A stretch of 63,941 nucleotides of DNA, counting the filler, from Rhizaria sp. SCN 62-66 (Eukaryota): NCBI GenBank assembly GCA_001724265.1. It is 3 parts of 3 records of this genome, joined end to end, with 100 filler letters (N's around TTAATTAATTAA, not from the genome) between each part and the next. Parts side by side here need not be neighbours in the genome. Positions count along the whole stretch, not along the records: positions 1 to 28,051 come from MEDY01000392.1; 2 more parts are not named here. One strand, 5' to 3'. Made by a program: the position numbers and the translations under genes. The notes beneath the pieces were generated by a model. It was given only the letters and a program-made list of their open reading frames with translations, searched no databases and was not told where the DNA came from. Below, in pieces: positions 7,044-63,000 of the stretch (position 1 is the stretch's first letter; every line of letters begins with the position of its first letter).

Positions 7044-8236
7044 GCAAGTCAGTCAGTTCCTATGCGAGTAAGCGAGATCCTGCGTATTTTTACACTGCGT
7101 CGCTAGTTTTAGTAGTTTGTGTTGTATATTTTTTTTTAAAATGTTATGTGTGTTATGATAGATGCAAGATGAGTGTGGTGGTTTGGTGGCTATTATCTTA
7201 CTTCACTCACAGTCTAAGTTGGTTACGCACGCAATGTAGCGCTCTTGGGTTATAAATAGCCAGTGCTACCGTTGACGTAAGACTTGGCCGTGTTGAAGTA
7301 TGGGGAGACTGCACTAGTGGAGTTCAAAAGGGGGAGGTTTACACTTTAACGCGCACGTCACCGTGTTTTATTTCATAACGAGTTCATTCGATCAACACTG
7401 TATCATCAGCTATTCTTGGCGTTGGTGCATACGTGTACTGTGTTACTCGGATGTTTCTTGCTCGTGAAGTCGAGGCGTGGTATCAGGCGTGCGTAAGGGG
7501 CGCAATTCGCTCGGATATGATGTATTAAAGTTTTGATTACTGTAATACGTACCTTTTGATTTTGTATATGTATGTGTATGTTTTGTTGTTGTCAGTTTTA
7601 GTCGCTGCCGTGTGTCGGATCGCATTCTCTTTTGCAGACGCCGTTCAGCTCAAAAATGAAAAGCAAAGTTTCTAGTACAATTCTAAATCTAAAATCTTAA
7701 ACAACCGGTTTCTAATACATAAGTATTTATGCCACTCGCATGATATCTTGTTTGCCTTCTATGATGCTTTTCACTTGCTCAGTGTGCATCTCGGTTGTGG
7801 CAAGCGAGGGGGGTCATGGCCTTGGAGTCACGGTTTAGATGGTTTATTACTCTCGGTATTTCACAGCATATAAACCGTTCTCTGCGCAACTGTGTGATGA
7901 TATGGAACCAATGCAACAATTTTAATATTATACTTCACCATCATTTGAAAATAACACGATTCTCATGGTATTCCGCTTGCGAAAATCTTTTAACAACCAT
8001 TCTCATCTTCGTCCCTACACCCGCCCTTGATTTCCTTCTACCATGCTTCTGTTATCGCAGCCTTAGCACTGCTACTGGCTTTTATAGGTGTAGCGCAACA
8101 ATTTAGTTTGCAACAATACTGTTCTTGTTCTTAAGTCTGACGTACGCTTGCTCTAGCGCCCCCGGCGCCCTCCTTCGCCGCTCCACCACAGCTTGCCTTG
8201 CGCACGCCCGGCCGCGCAGCCCTTCCCGCTGCTGCC

Positions 8237-11200
8237 ATGCAGCCCCTGCCCACCTTCTCACGCTCGGCGACGATGCCTCACGATGCACCTCCGGATGACG
8301 CCTTTACGTTCATCCCCGGCTCTGCTTCGGGCGCGCTGAACTCTACCGCGAGCCACCTGCCCCGCCCTCCACCTCACTCTGCACATTCAACCTCTGCTGC
8401 CATTGCCACGGCGTCAAACTCATCCTCATCATCTGCCGCAACGACCCCGTTGAGCGCCGAGCCGTTTCCCGGTCACATTCTGCTCTCGTGCCGCGTGCGT
8501 CCCCCGCAGACGTCGTCCTGGCGCGCCGGCACCGGTTTGCCCGAGCGCGGCTCGCTGCCCTGCGTTTTCGTGGCCAATACCGACCGGCACGTCGTGCTCC
8601 GCAACCCCGTCGCCGGCGAGACCGTCTCGTTCGGGTTTTCTCGCGCCTTTGCCTCTGCAGCTACTGACGAGGACACTAACAACGCCGATGCAAGTAGCTG
8701 CGCTGCTGGTCCCAACGCTGCTGCCGTTGCGCCCCCGCTGCCAGTTACTGCTCTGCCCTCCGAGCAGAAGACCGTCTTTGCCCAGCTCGTCGCGCCTCTG
8801 CTTTCGCTCACCTACGCGGGCCTGAACACATCGTTCTTTGCGTTTGGCCCCTCGGGCGGCGGCAAGACGCACCTGCTGCGCGGCGCCAAGGGCCTCGTGC
8901 TGCGCGCAGTGCACGATGCGCTCCAGCGCGCGGCCGAGGCCAAGCGACGCTATGAAGTCACCGCCGTGCGCGTGCACATGGCGGCGATCCTCTTCCACTC
9001 GACCGGCTCCGTCGATCTTCTTGCGCCCACGTCAACAGCCCCCGCGCAGAGTGGCACCGGCGTCGCTGCCGGCGGCTCAGTGTTGACCCAGAGCGGCGAC
9101 GCAGCAGTGCCGATGGGTGGTGTTGCAGATGATAGCCCACACGCGTCGCTGGCCTCACTGGGATCATCGTTTGCGACTTTACCTAGTACACTCAATACCG
9201 GGGCGACTAATCCGGGCGCTGATGCTGCGGCGGCGCAACAGCAGCGCGCACCCGTGTTTTCGCTCTCGTTCCGCGACTGCACTCCGCTGAACGCGCGCTC
9301 GAATGCGAATCCTAACACTTCAACTGGCGTTGGTCCTTCGCCAAAGAACAATGTTGTGTCGCTGCCGGTGTCTGAGAGCGAGAACGTCACCTGGTCCGAG
9401 GTGGACTCGGTCCGCGCCGCCGTCTCGCTGCTGCGCCAAGCGCTGCTCGCACAGCATGCTGCAGAGTCGTCTGTGCCCGCGAGCCGGGCTGCTGGCGCAG
9501 ACAACCACCGGCGCGGCTCCATCAGCGACGCCGCTGCTGAGGCAAGCAGCGCGGTTAACACCAGGAGTTAGCAGCAGAGCTGTGCGTCCTTGAGAGATGC
9601 GCATGTTGTGTTTAGCCTGCGGATTACACAAGCGAATCCTAACTGGAGCACGTCTGACGCATCCAGGCCTCGTAACCTGAACGTAACTGCGGGCACTGGT
9701 GCTGGCCAGGCGCACAACGCGCACATCCACTATAACAGTAATGCTCCTGGCGGTGACGGTGACGACTTTGCGCACGGTGCACATTTTGACGACGCTGGCA
9801 AGTTGAGCTGTGTGACGGTAAGCCACGAGGCCGCGGTTGCTGAGGCCGCGCTTGATATGGGCGGCCTTGCCTCCATCCTCACCGAGGGCGGCTCAATCAT
9901 CACCGGCACGTCTGCATCCTCTCACTCATCGAACTCGCTGACGAGTGACTGTGAGCCCGAGTCCGCGGAGGGCGGCATTGGCGGCCGTGCTGGCTGGCCC
10001 TGTCCGCGTTATATTGTGTCTTCCATGCATTTTATCGAGCTACAGAGCAGTGAGTCTGTCATGCAGTCGGGATCCTCAGCTTTGAGCTCAGGCTCAAACA
10101 AGTCCGTGACCGGAGCTACAGCGCGCGGTGGAAACAGAGACGAGCCCGACACTGATGCGGCGTCGTCCTCCGTTGCAACCACGACGCCCGCAAACGCCGG
10201 TCACCAGCGCACTGGCAGCGGGGCGCCCTCCGCCGCCGGCGCGTCTGCAGTCGGCAGCCGTCCCTCGTCTTCCACGACCCCGTCCGTGCCCGCCGCGCTC
10301 GCCGCCGCGTTCGCGTCGCCCTCGGCGTCCGCGACCTCGCTGTCGCCGACTCTGCGCGCGCTCGCCGCGGTGCTCCGCGGTCCCTCGCGCTTTGCCTCCG
10401 CGCGCCGCGCGCTCGCCGCGCTGCCCATCACGCGTTACCTGGCAGACTCGCTGTATCATCCTGACGCGTTCGCGCCCGCCGCGGTCACTCTTCCTAGTGA
10501 CGACACTGCTGCTGCTGCCGCCGCTGCAGTCGCCACAGTGCGCGCTGCGCTTGCGACGGGTCCCGGCGACGCTGCGGCCGCAGTCGCAGCGACGACGGCG
10601 ACGGTTGTGCCTGCGCAGACGCTGCTGGCATTGGCACCGCGTATTCCGCAGGCGCCGTCTCTTGCGTGCCTCTCTGCCGGTCTGTCGCTCACCGCTCAGC
10701 TACCCGCAGTCGCGGACACTGCGACGCACGCGCATGCAGGCACTACTCTCTTGCCGTTGTCCTGGGCTAGCGCTCTGTCGCACACTGTAGCTGCCACAGC
10801 GGCAGCGACCGCGGCGACGACTTACTCCAACGCAGTAAACACTGCTTTCGCGGTGCCACCAGCGCTGTTTATGCCGCCGCCGTGTTGCGCGTTTGTGCTA
10901 ACTGTTTCTCCTGCCTCCGTCGCATTTACTGCGACGTACCAGGTTCTTCGGCTCGCGTCCGCTGTCTGCGGCATTGCTCCGAAGCGTGCCGCGCTGCCGC
11001 CTCAGAGGCTTGACCTGACGGTTGACCCCGCTACGGCAACTGCGCCTGCTAAGACTGCTTCCGCTGTTCCTGCTGCCGCGGAGGCGCAACGAGCGGCCAG
11101 GCCGAAGCGTGCGCCGGGCACTGCTTGGGGCGGCGATGACAGCGAGAGCAGCAAGGACGCCGCGCCTGCTGCTGAGCCAGCCCCGGCTCCGGCTGCTTCC

Positions 11201-14200
11201 ACACTGAATGCGCCTGAGCCCGTCGCCGCTCGTATCACCGCCCCGCCCCCCCCACCTTCGCCGCCGCAGTTGGCCCAGCCGCCGCCGCTTGCGCCAGCCG
11301 TGGCCGCACCGGCGGTCAAGCTCACAGTCCCTGAGCATGAGCCCCCCAAGCCTGAGTACGAGTCCGAGTCCGACGCAGCGCCGTCCCCGCTGCCCGTCTT
11401 CGCGTCTCTGGTACCTGCGCCGTCGCCGTCTCCGGCACTGTCTGCTGCGTTTGCCCCGTTCACGCCTGCTATCTCTGCGGCCGCCGCGCCCGGACACGCC
11501 GTGCCACCGCTGCCGCTGCAGACGCGGCCGCGCCCGGAGCCCGTCCCCGTCATCGCTGCCGCTACCACCGCGGTCCCTGCTGTGGCGTCGCCTGCTGCGT
11601 TTTATCTCAGTCTGCTGCAGTCTGCTGCCACAGCCCTGGCGCTACCGCCTGCGCCCGCGACTGTTGCGCCGTCGTCGTTGCCCCTCGCGTTCCTCATCCC
11701 CCTGACCGAAGATGAGTCGTCGGCGGACGCTGCGACCGCGACGCCGCTGCGGCTGCCGTCACTGCTGACGCGTTTCTGCTCTCGCGACGCGGACGCTGCG
11801 TTCCCGCTCACGGCCGCTGCGACTGCAGCCGCTGCCACAGCGGCGAGTGTCGCTGTACTTGGCGTGACTGGGCACGCGCTGCCGGTGCCGTTTGTTGAGA
11901 GCCGCGTCGTCACCCGCGTGATGGGTCTGGGTGACGCCGCGTTTGTTATTGCAGCGTTGCCTAACTCGTTGCTGTTTGGTCATTCAACTAACTCTAACGA
12001 CAGCAACAACGCGAGTTCAGGACAGCACCTGCAACAGCCCGTTCAGCAGCAGCACCACTCAGGCGCGGGCCGCCCCGCGTCCGCTCCGTCTCCACTCGCC
12101 GCTTCCTCGAACAGCTTCGGGCCGCATGCGATCGCAAACGCGACCGCGAATGCGGGTGTGGACTCCGCAGCCGCGAACCCCTGCGGTTTGACATACTTCT
12201 TGTTGCCGCTGTCGTCCCAGCTAACTGTTAGCATCAACGGCGCATCACCGCACTGGAAGCCTCTGCCGATTGTTTCCGCTCCTACTAGTCACAGTAAACA
12301 CTCTGCTATTGAGAGCAAAGACGGCAACGAGACTGACGCCGACACCCTGTTTCACGGACAGCCGCGCCGTTTACTGTTGCCATCCGAGGTGCATCCACCT
12401 ACCCTGCTCTCACTCTGTCCCATATCTGACGATCGCTGCAACAAGAGTAACGTCCGTGGTTTGTCTGTCTGGGGTATTGCGCTGAACGACAATGATCGCC
12501 TTTGCATTGGAACAACGCACTTCTTCCGCTTCAAGGATCCCGCCACTTTCCGCTCTCGTTTCGCCACCAGCACTGCCAATGCTGCTGTGACCGATGCTAA
12601 AATGGTTGGCCAGTTCAACCTGGACACCGCTGAAGCTTCTCGCGTTACTGCAGAGGCCGGTGACAGTGCCGCTGACTTCGATGTTCTTTTTGGCGCTTGC
12701 AACAACGTTGACTTGGAGTTGCTTCCGCCTGCAGCGCCTGACTTCGAAGTCGACATCACGCACCGTTTCGCACTCTTTGAGCTTCAAGCCACGAACCTTG
12801 CTCTCTCGCTTGCGGCAACAAGTAGTAACTGCTGCAACAAGAACATCAACACTGGGAACGTTTCTAATAACAGCAGCGTTGTCCCCGCGATTGCGGCAAC
12901 ATTCGCTCACCCATTGGGCCCTGCCTCAGCGCGTGCCCGCCTGACTCGTCTCTCCGCCGCGCTGTTGTCGAGCATGCACGCTGCTCCCCCGGTAGCGCCG
13001 CTGCGCACGCGCGTTGAGTCGCTGTTCCGCTCTGCCGAGGCGACCATCAAGGCGCGCAAAGCTGGCGGCACTGGCTCCGCCGCTGGGACGCCAGCGCCCC
13101 GCAACAGCATCAGCAGCAATATCAGTACTGTGGCTGCGTCCGTCGTCTCCGCGTCGCTGCTGTCTGACTTGTACACTCTCATGTCGTCCGTGTCACTGAC
13201 TCAGGCCACGCACACGGGTGCGCGGCTTAACTTCTCCTGGCTGCACCTTTCCGCGTCGCACCTCGCCGCCACAGCAACTGCACTGTCACGTGCGTTATTG
13301 ATGCCGCTGCGCTTTGACATTACAGCGATCCCTGCGCCGCTACCGGGGCAGAATACGCGTGGTTGGCACCGCGCCGCTGCCGCTGACGCTTTGGTCCAGC
13401 ACTTACCCTCAGCCTCAGTCTCCGCCTCTGCCTCCACTGCTGGCAATGCGGCGACCACAACTGGTGCACTTGGCAACGGTGACGGCATCAGTGGCAGCGC
13501 GGCTAATATGCATCCGAGCACACCTCAGCGCGCGCGCCACAACCCTACTGCTGCATCGGGTACTGACTTCTCTCTCACGGTTGACCCTGCTGCCTCTACA
13601 GTTGAGGGTGACGGCGACGACGCCGCTGCTGTCGCAGCTGCAGCCTCCTTTGTCGCAGCGTCCGGTATCTTCAACTCACCTGCGCCACACAACCACGCTC
13701 TGTCACCGCGCCGTCGTCGCCAGCGCGCTTCATCTCCGCCCCGCTTCTCCGCTGCTGCAGCGACGGGCGCGGCCTCGGGCGACGGCAGCGTGCGTGTGAC
13801 ATCGCCGCTTGTTTGCGCTGTGAACAGGTCCTGGGCGTGGCGCCTCGTCGCGGTGGCCACGATCGACACCGTTATGCTCGTCGATATTGCTCGTCAGACC
13901 ACCGTTGGCTCTGCTGCGCTTGCCGCGTTCAACGCCCACGCACCGCTCTTTGCCGCTGCACTTGCGCCACGTGCATCTCCTGACGAGATTGGTGCAGATA
14001 GTAACAACAACTCAAGCACGGCCTTGGTGACAGTGCCTCACGGCAGCTTCGGCGGCGACTCACTCTCCGCCCTTCGCTCGTCGCTGCTCACTGCCATCAA
14101 TAGCACGACCGGAAACACGAGCGTGATTGGAACTTCAACGGGTAGTTGTGATCCTTCTGATACTGGGTTGATTGCAGCGCTGTCGTCCACAATCACGTTC

Positions 14201-17200
14201 CCTTTGGACACGGCAACTGCGGATGCTGCGTTTGCATGGGCGCATGCTCTCGGCCTCACAGCGCCTCTGTTTTCACCCACGTTTACCACGAATGCGCTTT
14301 CTGCGAAGTCCCGTGCTTCCGCAGCCGCAGCCGCTGCCGCCGCAATGGCAGCTGCCGGCGTTGCGCCCCCCAGTGGCGGCGTCATCTCCCCGCTATCGGG
14401 CCTTATCTCGCCAACAGGTTTCCCGCTGCCCGCGTCGCTGCCGCTGTCTGGAGTGCCGCTGCAGCCCGCCGCCGTGGCCGCTTTGTACCGGTCGCGCCCG
14501 TCCGCGCTACTGCCGCTGTCAGCGCTGGCCGCGCGCGTGCGCAGGCTTGTCGCGGCGCACGACGTGTTCCAGTCCGAGCTCAGGGCCGGACGTGCGAGCA
14601 TGAGTGCGAATGCGAGCAGTGCACACGCAGTCGCGCACTGCCAGTTCCCGACGCCAGGTGTGCCGCTGACCTTCAAGCTGCTCACGCAACAACCTCACCA
14701 GCCTGTGGTCAAGGGCGGGGGACATAGCAGGATGCCGTCGTTGTCGTTGAACTCGTCCTTATCGGCCGCATCATCGTCGGCGTCGGCTTCGGCAACGTCA
14801 CTTGCGCTGACGATCCCGGGCTTGCCCTTGCACAGCATCACTGGTGAGCAGAACGCACACGCTCTCCCTGCCTCCGCATCGGGTGTGCTCTCACCTCGCT
14901 CTCGTCCTGCTCTTGCATCGATGTCTTCTCTGTCGTTATTCGACATTCAGAATCAATCCCTCGCATCACCCAAGCCTCTCGGCTCACCGTCGCTCACACT
15001 TCCCTCGCCGCCACCGCCCGCGGACGCTGCGACCGCCGCATTGCTGAGCCTCGCGTCCCGCCGTGGCCCTGCTGCCGCTGCTGCTGCCGCCGCCTCTGTC
15101 GCTGCTAGCTCTCGCGCCAGCGCCCGTGCTACTGCGAATGCCCGCGCTCCCTCTTTGTTTCCTCTTGTTATCCCGCCAATGCCCGCGCCGCCGTTGCCTG
15201 CGCACGCGTCCACGCTGGTTGCGGCTGCCTCCAAGTCGCTTGGCGGCCTGACTGCACTGGCACTTGCCCGCGCGCTCGACTCCTTCGTGTTGTGGGTGCC
15301 GCTGCCGCTGGAAATCCCGTCCAGCGCTGGCGCTGCCAACTCTGGCGCTGCAAGTGGTGCGTCGGCAGGTTCCATCGGAACTGCAAACGACTCCGCTGCT
15401 GCGACAGCGGCTGCAGCGTCTGCCGCTGCAGCTGCTGTGACGAGGTACTTGCGCGCCCGCCGCATCATCAGCCCGACGCCCGCCGCACTCGCCGCTGCCG
15501 CTGCCGCCGCCGCCAGTGCCGCTGTTGCAACCAACGCAGCTGCTGCAGCAGCGGCTGCTTCTAATGCTGAGTCGACTGCAGTTGTCGAGCACGGCAAGCG
15601 CAGTCTTCGTGGAAAGCCTGTGCGCACGCGCGCCGTCCTGACGCCTTTCCCGTGCATCAGTCCAGACAACCCATTCCTGCTCCTCGCACCGTTTACTCTG
15701 ACCTCTGCCGCGACGACCGCTGCGCGTGCATTGCGCACGCCGCTGCCTGCGCCGACCGGCTCCCGCGCTGCGTGTGACGGCGACCCAGCCGAGCTGGCGC
15801 TCGCCGCAGCTGCCGCGTGCGCCGCCCCGCCGCTGCTCGCGTCCCCCGACTCGCTGTGCCCGGCGCCTGCGACCGACGCCAGTGCGCCCGCACCCGCCGG
15901 TGTCCCTGTCGCCGTAGCTGCTGGCGCTCTTACGCTCGCGCAGGCGTGCTCTCACGCGTACTCGGCGTCTCACTCTGCGGCGACAAACTCGAGCAACGCA
16001 ACGAGTGCGACGGTTTCCACTTTGAAGGTTCCCTTGTACGCTCCTCCCGGTGGTCTCGCTGGTCTTCTGGGCGAAACCGGTCTCACGCTTGATACGTCGG
16101 ACTCACGCAGCTCTAATGCCACCGGATGGGTGCAGTGTGAAGTTCGGGTTGTGCTGCATAAACGCACTGCTAGCACGAGCGCGAGTGCAGCAGCTGCAAG
16201 CTCTGCGGGCACTTTGCTCGCGCTTGTCTCGGCCACAAGCAACACTGCGACCTCTGTGACATCATCACCTTCGGGAGCTGTGAACAACGCTACTCGCAAC
16301 CAAGGCGCTTCAGCGGCACTGTCTCCGATTGCTGCACACGCGATCACTGGTGCCGCGGCCACCGCCGCGGCTGCTGCGGCCGCTGCTGACGCGAACGGAG
16401 GCGGTGACAGTGATTTCTTCTACGTGTCCGACGACTCAGACTCTGCCTCTGACGCCGGCTCTGACTCGGCCTCTGACGCAGCGCCCGGCAAGCGCCGCGG
16501 CAGCGGCAGCGCGCGTCCCTCCACCCGTCCCAGCTCCGGCCGCAACGTCGCCGGCCGTCCAACCTCCGGCTCCAAGACACGCCCTGGCACAGCGACGACA
16601 GCATCAGCATCTAATGGCGCGACAGCGGGTGCGTCTGCCAAGCACTCCCGCGCCCCGTCGTTCTCGCGTCCCGTGTCGGCCACAGCTGCCAGCGCTGCCG
16701 CTGGCGCCGCAACTGCTGGTGGCTCGACCGCCCGCGGCCGCTCCGGCAGCATGAGTCGCCCAACGCCCGCCACTGCGCTGCCGCAGTCCAAGTCGTCTGC
16801 GCCCACCGCGTTGAACGCGGAGCTCAGTCTGGATCTGGGCCCGACGGCCGCGAGTAACGGCACCAGCACTCGCCCCGGCAGCGCGCGCAATCGCTCCGAC
16901 AGCAGTGCCCGTGAGGCCGCGGACTCCAAGGCTGCCAAGGGATTGTCTAAGGCGAAGGGTGCCGACGGCGTTCGCCGCGCGCTCGAGGCCGCTGGTGTTC
17001 TGCCGTCATCTGGTAACGGGGGCAAAGCTGCGGCTGCGAATGCGAGTGCGCGCGGCAGCGCGAAGATCAAGGTTGCCGCTGATAACGTCGAAGGCGCTGG
17101 CGGCATCAGTGATCTGTCGCTGTCGCTATCTGACATGGAGGTCGACACTGACAGCGAGGGCGAGGGCAACGGTGCTGATAGCGACTACGACGACGAAGAC

Positions 17201-18976
17201 GACGACGTGGGCACTGGCTTTGAGCTCGACCTCGGCGGCGCGCTGGGCTACAACGACTACGACGACGAGGACGACTACGACGACGAAGACAATGACGGCA
17301 GCGACTGTGAGCAAGTGACGCCACGCACGCGACGCGAGCGCAAGCTCGAGGTCCGCGCTGCGGCCGCGGCGGCCGCGCCTCTGCGCCCGCTGGTGCCGCG
17401 CCGGAACAAGAAGCTTGCACTGCGTCAGAGGCTTGTCGCAGACGCCGCCGCCGCAGCTGCTGCGGTTGCCGCTGCTCAGGAGGCGTCCGCCGCTGCTGCG
17501 GCTGATGTCTCTGCTGGCGGCTGCGGGTGTGGCTGCGCTGCCGTCTCCAACGTCGCTGCGTCTGCGGCCTCATTATTCTTGCCTGCCACTGCCTCAACTC
17601 CATCGGGCTGGGCTCCCGTCATCTCGCAGGGCCACAGTAACTGCGACAGCGACGCCTTTGCGTCTGCCCTCGCTGATGCTGTGGCGCATGCTGTCCCCGG
17701 CACCGCGTTTGCGCTTGAGCTCGTCCTCACGGTCACCTCAATCTCCTGCTCCGCGCTGAAGCCTGCGCACAGTCTGCTCGGCGTCGTCTGCGGCGCCCGC
17801 GCTGCCCCTGCACTGGCCCTCACGCACGCGTCGTCGTCGCCGGCGCCGGTCTCCGCCACATCCGGCGCAAGCACCGGTGCAGGTGCCAGTGCCAGCGCGG
17901 TTGCCGCGGGAACAATGCGCACTGTTGCGCCCGCTGCCGCGCTCTGCATCGGCGCTAATAGCGCCGCGAGCAGTGATGCAGCTGGAGCATCAGGTTGTGG
18001 TCATGAGCAATGCTTCCATCTGGCAGCGAGTGCTGGTTCTTCTGCAACAGGGAAGGCAGGCCGTGCGAGTCACTCGACAACTTTTGTGACAAGCAATACG
18101 TGCTCGTCAATGACTGCCCCTCAGACGTCTAGCAAGACTGCAGGCACGACTGTTGCCACCAGCTCAAGCCCGGCATCAAACAATGCTTGCCGATTCATCC
18201 AGCCTCCTGCTGTCTGCGACGCTGCCTTCAGTCTCACTGTGCCGAACGTAAGCACGGCGCCTTCTAATGCTGACGCGAGTGCTAGTAAGAGCGCTATGGA
18301 GGTGGCTGTCGGTGCGACTGTCCGGTTCTGGCTCCCTCACTTGTCTACTGCGACCATCTTCGATATCCTCTCTGAAGACAACCATAGCTCTAACTCGAAG
18401 CCTCTCTCCCCGTTGGAGTCGCACCTGCGTTTCGCTTTCTTTCAGGCAGCGCCTCCTGCAAACGCCCCCGCGCCCGCGCCCGCTCCCGTCGCTGCTAAAG
18501 CCGTTACCGCGCCGCCCGCTCCTGTCGCCGCTCCGGTCGCTGCCACGGCGACCGCAGAGCCGTGCTCGTGCGGCGGCGTGCCGTCTTCGCTGCGTGCGTT
18601 AGAGTCCCGACTCGCAGCAGTGGCGTCCTCTCTTACCGTTATCAGCACCCCGGACAGCGCAGCTAACACTCTTGCTGCGATTGCGCCGCTGAGTGCGACT
18701 GCCCCGGCGTCCGCAGTGGTGCCCGCGCTGGAGCGCCATGCCGCCGCCGTCGAGGCCGAGGCGGCGCGCCTGCGCGCGCTCGTCGCGACACTGCAGGCGC
18801 GGGACGCCAAGCTGAAGCGCGTGGCGATGGAGTACAAGACGCTATGCAGCGAGATGGCTGCGAGCGCGGTCAAGACGGCGGAGAAAGAGAAGACGCGCGT
18901 CGGGAACAAATGGGCGGCCGCTGCAGCAACGAAAGTGACTGCAGCTGAGATTGCCAAGGCTGAGAAGCATGGCTAA
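8237..18976 (+). CDS. Giant (about 3580 aa) divergent kinesin-3-like protein with motor and FHA domains, read through one in-frame TAG at 9569-9571
   Basis: ORFs 8198-9571 and 9590-18976 are in the same frame and separated only by TAG. Before the TAG: LSCRVRPP, FGFSRAF, AGLNTSFFAFGPSGGGKTH (P-loop). After it: SLRDAHVVFSLRITQ, SSMHFIELQSSE, PITRYLADSL, FVLTVSPASVAFTATYQVLRLA, then an FHA-like end LNDNDRLCIGTTHFFRFKDP as in KIF1/13/16, and a C-terminal coiled coil. Ends in TAA. Confidence 0.8.
9569..9571 (+). other. In-frame TAG inside the kinesin motor domain; putative sense codon (Gln)
   Basis: Context AGG AGT TAG CAG CAG AGC = R S * Q Q S. The frame stays open for a further 9.4 kb. Confidence 0.8.
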
Positions 18977-28051: not shown

Positions 28052-28151
28052 NNNNNNNNNNNNNNNNNNNNNNNNNNNNNNNNNNNNNNNNNNNNTTAAT
28101 TAATTAANNNNNNNNNNNNNNNNNNNNNNNNNNNNNNNNNNNNNNNNNNNN
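28052..28151. other. Artificial contig spacer (44 N + TTAATTAATTAA + 44 N)
   Basis: Exactly 100 nt with a central 12-mer that puts stops in all six frames; identical to the spacer at 55959-56058. Confidence 0.97.
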
Positions 28152-55958: not shown

Positions 55959-56058
55959 NNNNNNNNNNNNNNNNNNNNNNNNNNNNNNNNNNNNNNNNNN
56001 NNTTAATTAATTAANNNNNNNNNNNNNNNNNNNNNNNNNNNNNNNNNNNNNNNNNNNN
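55959..56058. other. Artificial contig spacer (44 N + TTAATTAATTAA + 44 N)
   Basis: Same structure as 28052-28151. Confidence 0.97.
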
Positions 56059-59000
56059 CCCTCGGCCGCGGCGCGCGCGCGCACGGCGGCGCGGTGCGTC
56101 TCGCGCAGCGCCACGTGCGCAGCCATGCCTCCCGCGTTGTTCGCCGCGTTGGTCAGCGCAGAGTGGCGGCGGAGGAGCTCGGCGGCGAAGACGAGCCAGG
56201 CGCGGCGCGCGCGAGCGGAGCCGTGGCCGCAGCGCGTGAGGCGCGCCCACAGCATCAGCGAGCGCCGCAGCGCCGGGGCGGGCCCGCTCAGCGCGACCTC
56301 GCCGCTCGTGCTCGCGCCCGGGCTCATCGCGCCCTTGCGCACAGTCAGTGTCGTACCGCTCACAGCCACGGCACTACCACAGACATCGTCGTCGTCGTCG
56401 TCATCGCCATCGTTGTTGGAGTTAGATTCGGAGTCGGAGCCGGGGCCGCAGCAGGGTAGCGAACGGCGCGCGCGCGCGGCGCTGCTGTTGTTGTTCACAA
56501 AGCGGTGCGCGCGGCGGCGGCGCGCACGGGCCTCGCCGTCCGACTCCCAGTCATCCGCTGCCCACTCGGCACTTGCACTCGCTGTTGCAGCGGCGCTCAC
56601 AGTGTTCAGAGAAGACTTGGCGCTGCGGCCGTGGGGGGTCTTGGCGGTGCCGCGGCAGTGCGCGAAGCAGCCCTGCGAGGCGGCGGCGGCGGCGCGGCGG
56701 CAGAGGCGCCCGCGGCGGCCGTTGCAGACGCACAGCAGCCACCACAGCGCGCGGCAGAAGCCGCCGCCGCGGTCCTCCCGCGCGTCGTCGTCGTCTTCGT
56801 ACGGGTCGTTGGCGCCCTCGCCGGCGCCGGAGGCGCGGGCTAGGAGCGTGCGCGTGCGGGGCCGGGCCGCGTACGTCAGCCACACACGCGTGCTGTTTCT
56901 GCTGCCGCTTTCACTGGACTGGGCGGGGCTCTTGGAGGGCTGCGTTGTACTGCCAGTGGCGCTTGCGTTCGCAATGCTGCTGCTGCCGGAGGTTGAGTGT
57001 GCGGGGAGGCTGAAGAGAGCGCGCGCGCGCGAGTCGAGGCCGGGGCGCAGCGGACGCGCTACAGACGATGCACTCACTGCTGAGCTCGCAGTCGAAGGCC
57101 GATGCTTGACAATCTTGTCGTCGTCGCTATCAGTCTCGTCTTCATCCTCATCCTCATCCTCATCCTCATCTTCATCCTCGTCCTCGTCTTCGTCATCGTC
57201 ATCGGTGTCGTTGTCATCGACGAGAGCGCCATCAGTCAACCTCTGCCTCTGCTGCTGCTGCTGCTGCTGTTGCAGCTCGCGTTGCCTTTGCTGCTCCTGT
57301 TGCTGCCGCTGTTGCGCCATCGCCTGCTGCCGCAGTAGCTCGCGCTGCCGCATCTGCTCCTGCGCCACAACTTGCTGCGCTTTCGCATCCGCCTGCGCCT
57401 GCTGCGTGGCCAGCTGCTGCAGCGCCTTGGCGTGAATATCACCGTCGCCGCTGCTCACCGCGTCCGCCGCAGCGTCAGTAACCGTAATCGTGGCGGTCGC
57501 TGCCGCCGTGGCCGCCGCAAGCGCACCCTCGGGCGACCAGCCCTCGAGCGCGGCCAGCAGTGCGGCGGCCACGGCGGGCGCGCGCGAGACGCCGTCGTAG
57601 GACGCGACCAGCACGCGCGCGCGCGGCGGCGGCGGGCGGCCCGCGCGCACGCTTGCGCTCCTCGCACCCGCATTCGCGGTGATGTTGTTCGCACTGGCGT
57701 TGTTGCTGTTGCTGTTGTTGTTGTTGTTGTTGTTGTTGGCGGTAGAGTTGAGCGGGACGGGGGCGCCCAGCGTGTGCGAGGAGGGATCGAGCCCGAGCAG
57801 CGCCTGCGCCGTCCACAGTGCCGTCTAGGTCAACAGCGAGCGCGTGAGGCCGTGCGCGGGGGGCGCCAACCAGCGCCCGGACACCGCGCTGCCGTTGTGA
57901 CCGTGGGCGTGACCGTGGGCAGCGCTGGCGGCGGTGGTGCTTTGGGCGACAGTGCTCACGCTCGAGTGCGGCAGCGGGACATCGTGGCGGCTACTTGCGC
58001 GGGCGCCAGCGCTGGAGCTACTTGTAGAGCTAGAGCTAGAGCTGTCGCAGGCGGTACTCGCAGAGTTCGCAGGCTGTGTGTCATTCACACTGAGACTGCC
58101 ACTGTTTATACTGCCAACGCTGCTGGTGCTGATGCGCGAGTTTTCGTACAGGCGCCCGTGCGCGCTGTCATTCGTCACCTGGTCCAGCCACAGGTACTTA
58201 ATCTCCCACCCGCGCTCGCCCTCAGCGGCGGTATTTCCCGTCGCGCTGGCCCCACCGCTTTGCGCACTCTGGCTGGCCGCAGCCGCGTGACTGGGGCGCG
58301 CACGGGCGAGGGCGCGCAGCGTGGGCTCGCGGCGCGTCGTCAGCACACCCTGGGTCACCGCGCGCAGATAGCGCCGGGAGCGACGTGAGGGGCGGGTTGA
58401 CTTCGGAGATAAGGGGTCTGCATTGTCTTCGTTGTCGTCGTCGTCGATGTCGCTGTCAGAGTCGTAGTCGTAGACGTCGTCGCTACCAGAACCAGAGCCA
58501 GAGCCAGAGTCTGCGTCGGTATTAGCAGTGCTGTTGCTCTTGCTCTTGCTGTCACCGTAGTCGTAATCCAGCGTCACTGCGCTTTTAGACTCTGACTGGT
58601 CTTTCTTACTCTGAATTTGACTCTTGCTCCTACTCTTGCGACGCCGATCAGCATGGCGAGCAGTCTCAGCCACGCCGCCGCTCGCGCCCGTGTCCGTGTG
58701 CGCGCGCATGCGCACCACGGTCCCCGCGAACGCCGGCCTGAGCGCGGGCCCGACGAGGATGACGTGCGTGACGCCGCTGGCGAGCAGGAAGGAGCTGTTG
58801 AGCGCGGCGCCGAGCCCGCCGACCAGCAGCCACGGCGAGGCCGCCGCGGCGAGTGACCGCGAGCACGGGAACTGCTCCAACCGCCGCGACGCCGCCGCAG
58901 CCGCAGTGCCGCCAGAACCGCGAGAGAGGCTGGCGTTCGTGGTGGAGTCGGGGTTGAGGCTGCGGAGCGGGAGGAGGTGAGCGGGGAAGGCGCGAGGCAG

Positions 59001-60015: not shown

Positions 60016-63000
60016 ATGAACAGCCTTCAGCGCGCGTTCGCCGCGCGCGCTGCCGCTGCCACCGCCGCCGGGGCCGCGGACGACGACGACCCCAGTGCTG
60101 TCCCCGTCCCGGCCCCTGTCGCTATGGCAATAGCCTCAGTCTCCGCCGCAGCCGCGCCAGCGCCTGCAGCCACGAGCCCGCTGCGCACCCCGGCCCCGGC
60201 CCGCGGCCCCGGCCCCGCCGCGGCCTGCTCCATTGAGCGCTACCGGAACAGTCCCGAGTTGTTCGCCATCCTCCAGGAACAGGAGCCTGTCCACGAAGCT
60301 GGCGGCGCGCAGCGGACAGGCACACCAGGCCAGGCCCGCGCCACGCCGCAGGCGGGCCACGCGCAGCAGAGCGCGGGCTTTAGTGTGGGGCCGTTCGTGG
60401 GCCCTGTGCGCAGTGGCGCTGATGATGTCATGAAGACGCCTGCAACAGTCTCCGTCTCGTCCTCCTCCTCTGCTTCTGCCTTTTCGTCGTCGTCGTCTTC
60501 GTCGATGTATGCGTCGCCCTCGGTGGGGTTTATTTCCCCCGCAGTGTGGTCGCCTTATTGCAGCTCTAACGCGACTCTCTACGCCCCGGGCTTTGACGCA
60601 GGATTTGGCTCTGGCTCTGGCGATGCTCTGACACAGCAACAACAACAGCAGCGACAGCAGGAGTCGTTGCGCGGGTCGACCCTCAGGCTGGCTTTCTTGC
60701 ACGGCCGCCTGAGGCCGCTGAAAAACAACGCTAAAAAAGATGAAAGCAACACCACAAGCAACAGCGAGAGTCTTGAGCACAGCACTGCTGCTGCCGCCGC
60801 TGCCGCAGAGGCGGCTGCAGCGGCAGCACCAGCCACCGCGGCGGTGACAGTGGCTGCAGCGGATCAGCAGAGCAGCGATGCACTGGACCGCTCCGTCATC
60901 GAGCTCAGCGATTCCGACTCCGAGGCTAGTGTCGGCGGCGAGGGGCCCAGCAAGAGCATGAGCACCGACGGCGATGACATCGCCAGGACGGGGAGTGCGA
61001 GTGGGGATCTGCGCGTGCTGACGGTGTCGCCGATCTGCCTCGTGTCGCCCGCGCCGGCCGCCGCTAAGACCGTGGCTTGGACCACCCCACACAGCGGCGG
61101 CGACGGCGACGGCGACGGTGGCAGTAGCTCGCGTCCGGGTCAGACCCAGAGCTCGAGTTAGGAGGAAGAGCGAGCCCGCGCGCAGCGTCGGCTGAGCATG
61201 AGTAGCGGCGACGGCGTCGACGGCGACATCACCAGTAACAGTATCGCCAACGACCAGAGAAACGGGGACGGCGATAGTTAGCGCGAGCGCGAGCGCAACG
61301 ACGAGACTGAGACTGGTTACGCAGACGACGACGACTATAACTACCACAACAATGACAACAACGGCGACGACGGCGACTATACCCAGACCGGCAACGACGA
61401 CCTGGACGGTGACGGCGTGAATAACGTCGAGGTGATCGAGCTGAGCGACTCGCCCACAATCTCGCCCGCGCGTCCCGCGCCCAAGGCCGGCAGCGGCGAC
61501 AGCAGCACCGACACTTACAGTGCGGCCGCGAGCGCGAGTGCGGCGAAGGCCGGTGGCGGGGAAGAAGAGAGCGAGATGGCGCAGTGGCTGCGCGCGCTCG
61601 AGGCGTCGCCCCAAGCCACGACGCCCACCAAGCGGTCGCTCTCGCCAGCCCCGTGCCCGCTGCGCCACGACGGTGACGCTAACTCTGGCTATGTCAGAAA
61701 ATCACCTCTTGTGACGTTGTCGTCGTTCTCGTCATCGTCATCGTCATTGGCGGTTCCCAGTGTGCTGTTCTCTTGCGACGCGCGCGACAGCACAAGCTCT
61801 CTTCGCCGGTCACATTCGCGCTCACGGTCTCGCGACCACTCACCGCATACTTACACGCGCACGAGAGCTGACCCGCCGCGCAGCCCGCAGCACACGACGC
61901 CTCCGCGCCCGCCGCAGCCATCTCATTCGGAGTTGAGCGTCACGCCTGCCGAGGCGCGCTGCTGCGCCGTGTGCTCGCTGCCTTTTGCTACGCGCGCGCT
62001 GCGGGACTCCGCGCCCGCACTCCTCGCCGCTGCCGCGGCCGCGGCAGCGGCGGCGGCCGCGGCCGTGCCGGCGAACCACGTCCTGACTGACGCCGCCGAT
62101 ACCGCGGCGAAGCTGGCGTCGGAGGCCAAGGACGTGCCACAGCGCGCGCCCGCGAGCCCGGCCGAGTGCACGCACATGGTGTGCCAGCGGTGCCTCGTGC
62201 AATGGCTCGACACGGACTCGACCTGCGTCTTTTGCAAGGTGCAGGTGCGCATGGTCTACGTTTTCAACGACGACTACTTCGACCGCCTAGACATCTCTAA
62301 GCCGAACAGCAGCAACAGCAACAACAGCAACGGTCCCAGCAGCGGCGGCCGCAGCAGGCGCCCCCCGGTGCCTCCGCCCGCGGCGTACTCGTGGTACGCC
62401 AAGGAAGATTGGCCGGCCCGCGAGTCGGCCGCGCTGACCCCTGGCGCGGCGCCCATCGCGCTGGCCGACTATGCGCTGGCGCCGCCGTTGCGCGTGTTGC
62501 CACCGTGGCACGCGCTGTCGGACACGCGCGCCGCGCTCTTCGCTGGCCCGCTGGCGCCCGTGCTGGAGCTGCCGTTCGAGCGGCGAAGGCAGCCGATGGC
62601 TCACGTTTTCTCCGAGTTCACGCCGGGCGCGGGGCTCAGCGGTGCGAGCGCGGTGACGCACGCGGACATTGCGCGCGAGCAGAACGCCGATGCCGCCGAG
62701 TGCCACGTCTGCGGCTCCGGCGACGACCCGGGTCGACTGCTGCTGTGCGAAGGACTCATCGACCCCGTCGCGCCCCCCGGCGCCGCGCGCGACGCGGCCA
62801 GCGCCGCCGAGCTGGCGCGGGCGCGCGCGCGGTGGGTGGACCTGCTCTCGCGCGGCACCTACTCGGCCGACGTCTTCGGGCTTAACCCCAACGCGCCCGC
62901 ACTGGCGCCGATCGACCGCAGCCGCCGCGGCCGCAGTCGCAGTCTCCGCGACGAAGACGACGACGAGGAGGAGGAGGAGGAGGACGAGCACGGGACGGTG

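What the first reader, a model, noticed from the sequence alone, without database searches (positions are those of the whole stretch)
9540..9630. TAG splits the kinesin motor between the P-loop and switch I
Seen: the P-loop half lies upstream and the switch I/II and microtubule-binding half lies downstream of one TAG in context S*QQS. Neither half can form a motor domain alone, and over 3100 codons follow without a stop, which argues against pseudogene decay. This is the strongest single site for UAG=Gln. Caveat: GTTAACACCAGGAGTTAG (9554-9571) is formally an 18-nt GT-AG, but the introns modelled here are about 120-560 nt with GTACG donors.
Basis: partly seen in the sequence, partly recalled or inferred. 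Interest (0 to 1): 0.75.

Follow-up and report, generated by a model that had tools for sequence, protein, structure and literature searches.

The report
Protist reads UAG as glutamate
A 'stop' codon in the middle of a motor-protein gene is real and is read as an amino acid, most likely glutamate rather than glutamine, because this uncultured single-celled eukaryote seems to have changed the meaning of UAG alone while keeping its other two stop codons.

Summary
The TAG at 9569-9571 is real. It lies in frame in a 3,579-codon divergent kinesin gene, inside the switch I loop, and 3,134 open codons follow. It is a sense codon. In about 1 Mb of this genome, TAA and TGA end genes, no TAG convincingly does, and in-frame TAGs sit at gap-free positions of eRF1, FAP21/EFHB, UBE2J1, SUV3 and kinases. 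The only CUA-anticodon tRNA found has a tRNA-Glu body (47 of 73 bases match the host Glu(CUC), 33 match Gln(CUG)), and no Gln-type CUA or UUA tRNA was found. The two most conserved TAG columns are Glu: FAP21 (5 of 5 shown structures and a 75%-identical relative) and eRF1 (107 E, 0 Q of 117). Other columns are weak or favour Gln, and the kinesin site itself lies in a Gln-like context. eRF1 carries T32S, G57S and T58K. Best reading: a nuclear code with UAG=Glu and UAA/UGA=stop (0.78), which I did not find in the open literature searched. No RNA covers the site and no proteomics exist.

The parts
8237..18976 (+). Divergent kinesin-like gene, apparently single-exon, 3,579 codons plus TAA, one in-frame TAG
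   Evidence: single exon is inferred from the open frame, not from RNA
8846..8869 (+). P-loop (GPSGGGKT) within the Pfam Kinesin match (residues 207-298, E 1e-10)
9389..9448 (+). Probable alpha3 helix before the switch I loop
   Evidence: by eye against the paralogue alignment; helix in a low-confidence model; inference
9569..9571 (+). In-frame TAG, read as sense (most likely Glu), in an insertion of the switch I loop
   Evidence: residue inferred genome-wide
9554..9571 (+). Formal 18-nt GT-AG; judged not an intron
   Evidence: eRF1 introns are about 292, 134 and 169 nt; no RNA cover
9593..9631 (+). Degenerate switch I end plus beta6 (RDAHVVFSLRITQ)
   Evidence: colinear block test
10019..10057 (+). 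beta7 and degenerate switch II (ELQSSE)
   Evidence: weak KIF7 alignment, i-E 3.6
10421..10453 (+). alpha5-like block
10889..10966 (+). beta8/alpha6-like block closing the motor
12188..12541 (+). FHA-like region, suggesting a kinesin-3-like layout
   Evidence: ESM Atlas 0.86 to FHA clusters, some with Kinesin_assoc/KIF1B (lead only); no Pfam hit
57825..57827 (-). Another in-frame TAG (contig C597 of the same genome)
61159..61161 (+). In-frame TAG upstream of a RING/PHD region
61279..61281 (+). Second in-frame TAG in the same gene

Best explanation
The nuclear code of this organism reads UAG as glutamate; UAA and UGA remain stops. A single nuclear tRNA gene with a tRNA-Glu body and a CUA anticodon (one change, C36 to A, from CUC) decodes UAG. 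It is charged by the ordinary cytosolic GluRS (inferred). eRF1 with T32S, G57S and T58K recognises UAG poorly (inferred). UAG is a rare codon. It arises both from GAG and, by transition, from CAG in unconstrained stretches such as this kinesin loop. The kinesin is made full length with Glu at this site. Shown from sequence: in-frame TAGs, absence of TAG terminators in the sample, the tRNA gene, the eRF1 substitutions. Inferred: charging, decoding, loss of termination.
For: tRNA(CUA) at G000:C84:76008-76080, single copy, Rfam 58 bits, followed by a T-run, between ordinary GC-rich eukaryotic genes. Identity 47/73 to host Glu(CUC), 40 to Glu(UUC), 33 to Gln(CUG), 29 to Gln(UUG). Its seven closest tRNAs in hand are all Glu; 16 of the 20 annotated rows among 30 listed phage-collection hits are tRNA-Glu. 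It carries U11-A24, U13-G22, A46, no residue 47, U35 and A37, the E. coli GluRS determinants (PMC9976931 passages). A human tRNA-Glu(CUA) variant inserts about 95% Glu (PMC12204705 passage). FAP21/EFHB TAG: E in 5 of 5 shown PDB alignments (8 matched) and in a 75%-identical relative. eRF1 TAG: E 107, D 9, V 1, Q 0 of 117; E 70, D 3 of 73 other loci. UBE2J1: D 37, S 12, E 8, Q 0 of 70. Pfam bits summed over 10 sites: E beats Q by 4.0, K 4.0, D 6.6, S 10.5, L 21.9 (my sum). Stops followed by non-coding DNA with no donor-like motif: TAA 96, TGA 63, TAG 6, none of the 6 a convincing gene end. eRF1: T32S 0 of 117 homologues, G57S 0, T58K 1; T32 contacts the G of UAG (PMC5304391 section 9).
Against: Few informative columns: two strong ones. 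2.4 of the 4.0-bit Pfam gap comes from one kinase whose closest solved relatives have S or Q there; with the other kinase model the gap is 2.2 bits. NEK1 has Q at another site. A divergent ubiquitin has TAG where 7 matches in the paralogue loci (some overlapping) have CAG. SUV3 is near even (E 9, Q 7, D 96 of 149). The closest eRF1 relative has V at the TAG position. Several TAGs lie in poly-Gln tracts; TAG contexts (57 sites, including intronic ones) fall between true E and true Q. The tRNA is a single diverged copy with no evidence of expression, and no relative's copy was found. An E. coli tRNA-Glu suppressor inserts 59% Glu and 17% Gln. Only about 3% of the genome was read.
Confidence: 0.78

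Rival explanations
1. UAG is sense but decoded ambiguously, mostly Glu with a sizeable Gln share, through mischarging of the CUA tRNA by GlnRS or near-cognate reading by tRNA-Gln(CUG).
For: TAG contexts mix E-like and Q-like sites. The tRNA has U1-A72, U35 and G73; pair 1-72, U35 and the discriminator base are E. coli GlnRS contact points (PMC9976931 passages; that G73 is the matching base is recalled). The E. coli suppressor gives a Glu/Gln mix.
Against: The human equivalent gives about 95% Glu. The host's own tRNA-Glu also starts U1-A72, whereas host tRNA-Gln does not. A mixed context is also expected from mutation alone.
Confidence: 0.09
2. UAG = Gln, as in Iotanema; the Glu-type CUA tRNA is inactive and a tRNA-Gln(CUA) is missing from the assembly.
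For: Kinesin context S#QQS; poly-Gln sites; ubiquitin CAG-to-TAG; NEK1 and RAF have Q at two kinase sites. Stop-to-Gln is the commonest change (PMC5304391 abstract and background).
Against: FAP21 and eRF1 columns are E with no Q; UBE2J1 has no Q in 70. No Gln-body CUA tRNA by two patterns (40 of 42 hits examined or identical to examined ones; first 100 of 168 rows seen).
Confidence: 0.08
3. UAG is still a stop, wholly or by context: this TAG is a nonsense allele, an assembly error, a leaky stop or is removed with an 18-nt intron.
For: TAG is very rare in coding sequence (at most 71 of 196,384 codons). A formal GT-AG exists. No transcript covers the site. Switch motifs are degenerate.
Against: TAG splits the only eRF1 gene found (the other PF03463 hit reads as Pelota-like by eye) at a gap-free position, and an independent assembly is identical. 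FAP21 likewise aligns without a gap. X4 carries the kinesin TAG. No convincing TAG terminator among 41 sites.
Confidence: 0.05

Closest known systems
Rhizarian exLh (Sainouroidea; UAG=Leu) and Iotanema spirale (UAG=Gln), PMC5304391
   Same: UAG alone reassigned, UAA and UGA kept as stops; change at eRF1 Thr32 (T32G in I. spirale, T32S here); possibly the same supergroup as exLh
   Different: Residue: Leu scores 21.9 bits below Glu over 10 sites. The tRNA gene predicted but not seen in that paper is found here, and it is Glu-type.
Oligohymenophorea sp. PL0344 (UAG=Glu, UAA=Lys), PMC10553269
   Same: UAG=Glu with tRNA-Glu-derived CUA tRNAs
   Different: There UAA is also sense and only UGA stops; here UAA is the commonest stop and no UUA tRNA was found. 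Ten CUA tRNA genes there, one found here.
UAR=Glu codes of peritrich ciliates and Blastocrithidia (PMC11687900, PMC12153298 passages)
   Same: UAG=Glu; tRNA-Glu(CUA) in Blastocrithidia
   Different: Both UAA and UAG are Glu there, and the Blastocrithidia change is tied to AT pressure; here only UAG, rare, in a GC-rich coding genome.
Phyllopharyngean ciliates (UAG=Leu or Gln) and Scotinosphaera (UAG=Ser), PMC11687900 passages
   Same: UAG-only reassignment, found in metagenome-assembled genomes with CUA tRNAs
   Different: Other residues, other lineages
Kinesin-3-like motors (motor plus FHA)
   Same: N-terminal motor with P-loop, FHA-like region downstream (lead)
   Different: Motor stretched to about 830 residues by low-complexity insertions; switch I and II degenerate; family not tested by a tree

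Membership tests
UAG-only nuclear reassignments | In-frame UAG at gap-free positions of conserved genes | tested here: met
   eRF1, FAP21, UBE2J1, SUV3, kinases
UAG-only nuclear reassignments | UAA and UGA remain stops | tested here: met
   non-coding DNA follows 123 of 133 TAA and 93 of 99 TGA
UAG-only nuclear reassignments | UAG not used as terminator | tested here: met
   0 convincing of 41 TAG, one or two unclear (L174, L194); sample about 3% of the genome; rare dual use not excluded
UAG-only nuclear reassignments | tRNA with CUA anticodon | tested here: met
UAG-only nuclear reassignments | eRF1 that fails to terminate at UAG | not testable with these tools
   T32S, G57S, T58K seen; function needs an assay
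UAG=Gln code (Iotanema, Hartmannula, Trochilia) | Gln at conserved UAG columns | tested here: not met
   strongest columns are Glu with no Gln; three weaker sites favour Gln
UAG=Gln code (Iotanema, Hartmannula, Trochilia) | tRNA-Gln(CUA) | tested here: not met
   CUA tRNA is Glu-type; none Gln-type found; assembly may be incomplete
UAG=Leu code (rhizarian exLh) | Leu at conserved UAG columns | tested here: not met
   -21.9 bits against Glu; tRNA has a short variable arm
UAR=Glu or UAA=Lys/UAG=Glu codes | UAG decoded as Glu by tRNA-Glu(CUA) | tested here: met
   by sequence inference only
UAR=Glu or UAA=Lys/UAG=Glu codes | UAA also sense, tRNA(UUA) present | tested here: not met
   2 of 133 TAA continue in frame; 13 pattern hits gave Thr, Pro, Lys or no tRNA
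Pyrrolysine system (ARAGORN labels the tRNA 'Pyl') | tRNA-Pyl fold, PylRS and pyl genes | tested here: inconclusive
   canonical cloverleaf, best matches tRNA-Glu; PylRS not searched; the label follows the anticodon alone (recalled)
Rhizaria/Cercozoa | Insertion between polyubiquitin monomers | tested here: inconclusive
   no intact polyubiquitin junction seen; monomers start MSMQIF, consistent with the insertions in PMC12930898 (passages); no phylogeny run
Catalytically active kinesin motor | Intact switch I (SSRSH) and switch II (DLAGSE) | tested here: not met
   LRDAH and ELQSSE; P-loop intact

The most novel reading that the evidence does not exclude
Beyond a new UAG=Glu code with UAA/UGA stops, the change may have been seeded by a tRNA-Glu of bacterial type: it matches bacterial tRNA-Glu at up to 54 of 73 bases against 47 for the host's own, though those were picked by similarity. 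The change may still be incomplete, with one weak suppressor competing against an eRF1 that half-recognises UAG. The UAG inside eRF1's own gene would then set eRF1 levels by negative feedback, a living intermediate of codon capture.
Probability: 0.12. Interest if true: 0.92.

Novelty: new variant of a known kind. Interest (0 to 1): 0.78.

Why it matters
Uncoupling UAG from UAA in nuclear genomes is rare. In the papers read, UAG alone has gone to Leu, Gln or Ser, and UAG=Glu always comes with a reassigned UAA. This would add UAG=Glu with UAA and UGA as stops, outside ciliates. The parts are in one genome: the tRNA gene, one cytosolic GluRS and an eRF1 changed at Thr32 and Thr58. That makes it directly testable how eRF1 drops UAG while keeping UAA, a question that also bears on amber-suppression engineering. 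If the organism is a rhizarian, the group holds two different UAG-only codes. Practically, standard-code annotation truncates its genes: database protein P0284 ends exactly at the SUV3 TAG.

Tried and rejected
RNA check: X5 (polyA RNA contigs) covers 9256-9512 and 9797-10068 but not the TAG; X6 and X7 do not cover it either. No verdict on splicing or editing. Single-sequence AlphaFold of the motor: mean pLDDT 35, uninformative. MAFFT alignment with 17 paralogues put the second half of the motor upstream of the TAG; rejected because the block test places beta6, beta7, alpha5 and beta8/alpha6 downstream. The first stop-context script was contaminated by antisense frames and was replaced. Many 'TAG inside match' flags were intron acceptors or intronic (e.g. 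L017, L125, L133, L303, L304, L315) and were dropped. In one search, 11 sites were given; L311 was dropped from the sum because E, Q and D fell under the cut-off while K, L and S narrowly passed. Extra Pfam sites gave differences of 0.2 bits or less, slightly towards Q at two. Family searches with no usable TAG: kinesin, ABC, DEAD, WD40, dynein N2, myosin, SNF2, EF-hand, GluRS/GlnRS. Metagenome scan for a Glu-type CUA tRNA found none; the eRF1 scan found one identical contig and no close relative. Searches carried E at the site, one residue that could bias hits slightly; searches used X. Ciliate contamination as the tRNA's source was rejected: it lies on an 86-kb contig among GC-rich host-like genes. 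No extra GluRS: three GluRS/GlnRS genes. Earlier scan notes: none. Taxonomy was not resolved.

Full report
Observation. The TAG is at 9569-9571 on the + strand, codon 477 of a frame that opens at 8141 and has its first ATG at 8237. It is the only TAG in 3,579 codons, and the frame ends at TAA 18974-18976. The part after it is 3,134 codons without a stop. Pfam recognises only the P-loop half (residues 207-298). The second half is too diverged for Pfam or a paralogue HMM. Four of five motor blocks built from 20 of the genome's kinesins fall in order downstream: total 3.8, against -50.5 +/- 8.2 for 500 shuffles and -4.2 for the best of 26 other windows. The ESM Atlas places that half nearest kinesin motors (0.79) and a later region nearest FHA domains (0.86); both are leads only. 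The TAG lies in an insertion of the switch I loop. Switch I and II are degenerate, so this may not be a working ATPase (inference). A contig from another study has the same TAG, 27 bases from its end. The one RNA run laid does not reach the site.

The genome. G000 has 34.9 Mb in 714 contigs; the window joins several of them. Runs that hold the stretch are labelled bioreactor, wastewater or activated sludge metagenomes, three flagged as possible sources. It is a eukaryote with spliceosomal introns, axonemal FAP21 and 13 dynein N2 matches, so a flagellate. Ubiquitins starting MSMQIF and a very divergent 18S with long insertions hint at Cercozoa. No tree was built, so this stays a guess.

Is UAG a stop? 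I read the window plus 221 loci (about 1 Mb, roughly 3% of the genome; not random: kinesin, kinase and tRNA loci plus 340 kb of two contigs). After clearly coding upstream sequence, non-coding DNA follows 123 of 133 TAA and 93 of 99 TGA. For TAG the frame stays the best of six in 22 of 41 cases and looks non-coding in 14. Of those 14, 8 have a donor-like motif just upstream. Of the other 6, one lies in the same intron as a counted one, one is an AT-rich shadow frame by eye, and four continue in frame: for 583, 115 and 3,135 codons, and one inside a Pfam match. The matching counts without a donor are 96 TAA and 63 TGA. TAG sits at gap-free positions of eRF1 (human Glu107; identical in an independent assembly), FAP21/EFHB, UBE2J1, SUV3 and several kinases. 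It is rare: at most 71 of 196,384 codons in 293 frames, many of them intronic or upstream.

Which residue? The genome has one tRNA with a CUA anticodon, at C84:76008-76080. It is a full cloverleaf (Rfam 58 bits) followed by a T-run, between a formin-like and a GINS-like gene (names by eye). It matches the host tRNA-Glu(CUC) at 47 of 73 bases, Glu(UUC) at 40, Gln(CUG) at 33 and Gln(UUG) at 29, and it shares the first five acceptor pairs with host tRNA-Glu. Among 30 listed database hits, 16 of the 20 annotated ones are tRNA-Glu and none is tRNA-Gln. It has U11-A24, U13-G22, A46 and no residue 47, which PMC9976931 lists as E. coli GluRS determinants (passages). A human tRNA-Glu(CUA) variant inserted about 95% Glu; an E. 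coli one inserted 59% Glu and 17% Gln (PMC12204705 passages). No Gln-type CUA tRNA and no UUA tRNA was found; the assembly may be incomplete and long tRNA introns would escape the patterns.

Protein columns mostly agree. FAP21: E in 5 of 5 shown structures and in a 75%-identical relative. eRF1: E 107, D 9, V 1, Q 0 of 117, the V being the closest relative. UBE2J1: D 37, S 12, E 8, Q 0 of 70. SUV3: D 96, E 9, S 8, Q 7 of 149. Pfam scores summed over 10 sites favour E over Q and K by 4.0 bits, D 6.6, S 10.5 and L 21.9 (one site dropped). Against: 2.4 of those bits come from a kinase whose nearest structures have S or Q; NEK1 has Q at another site; a diverged ubiquitin has TAG for the paralogues' CAG; several TAGs lie in poly-Gln tracts. 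Context scores of 57 TAG sites average -0.21, between true E (1.46) and true Q (-2.37). A mixture is what UAG=Glu predicts if TAG arises both from GAG and by the commoner transition from CAG in loose regions (inference). The kinesin site is probably of the second kind.

Release factor. In human numbering eRF1 has T32S in the GTS loop (0 of 117 homologues), G57S (0), T58K (1, the close relative), L124M (0) and K130Q (0). PMC5304391 (section 9 read) states that Thr32 bonds the G of UAG and that Iotanema has T32G. PMC3384315 (passages) reports that T32A lowers UAA and UAG release alike and that T58 contacts RNA, so selective loss of UAG is plausible but not shown. There is one cytosolic GluRS, one GlnRS-like and one mitochondrial-type gene (the last two assigned by eye).

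Mechanism, most likely. A duplicated or acquired tRNA-Glu changed C36 to A and reads UAG but not UAA. eRF1 lost its grip on UAG. UAG became a rare Glu codon. The kinesin is translated through 9569 as one protein. Odds: Glu 0.78, mixed Glu/Gln 0.09, Gln 0.08, still a stop 0.05.

Comparison. PMC11687900 (passages) lists UAG-only changes to Leu, Gln and Ser, and UAG=Glu only with UAA=Glu (peritrichs) or UAA=Lys (PL0344; PMC10553269 passages). Blastocrithidia has UAR=Glu (PMC12153298 passages). PMC5304391 (abstract, background, passages, section 9) gives the rhizarian UAG=Leu code. Seven searches (listings only) showed no UAG=Glu code with UAA and UGA as stops. Word look-ups in two 2026 rhizarian papers found no nuclear code change (PMC12930898, PMC13746701). 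The library holds open-access papers only and no supplements were read, so a report in a subscription journal or a supplementary table could be missed.

Verdict. Observation confirmed; interpretation partly supported: sense codon yes, Gln probably not. A new variant of a known kind, interest 0.78.

Noticed in passing
L061:1594-1596 (-), G000 C63: The eRF1 gene itself holds an in-frame TAG (human Glu107), though the codon is rare; it could be chance or a feedback site.
   Followed up: partly
L067:1489-1561 (-), G000 C84: The CUA tRNA's D and T arms match bacterial tRNA-Glu better (up to 54 of 73) than the host's (47), while the acceptor stem is host-like; the bacterial hits were chosen by similarity.
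   Followed up: partly
L140, G000 C706:4459-8903: 18S rRNA gene of 4.4 kb, AT-rich and very divergent, with long insertions that look like group I introns, one with a possible homing endonuclease frame (by eye).
   Followed up: no
L171-L182: Ubiquitin genes appear as monomers starting MSMQIF and ending in a short tail after the GG; no intact polyubiquitin junction was seen.
   Followed up: partly
L166:2248-2250 (-) and L130 near 150 (-): TAA within or next to poly-Gln tracts with coding-like sequence after it; probably true stops or alleles.
   Followed up: no
window 28052-28151 and 55959-56058: N-run spacers with a stop-linker join separate contigs; the window is a concatenation.
   Followed up: yes
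window 8237-18976: Kinesin with intact P-loop but degenerate switch I/II and long Ala/Ser/Pro insertions; possibly a non-motile microtubule binder.
   Followed up: partly
P0005, P0349: Unnamed metagenome proteins 85% and 75% identical to this organism's eRF1 and FAP21 show close relatives exist; P0005 shares T58K but not T32S or G57S.
   Followed up: partly
G000 C164:48099-49313: A dynein N2 match with one TGA inside; intron or other cause not checked.
   Followed up: no
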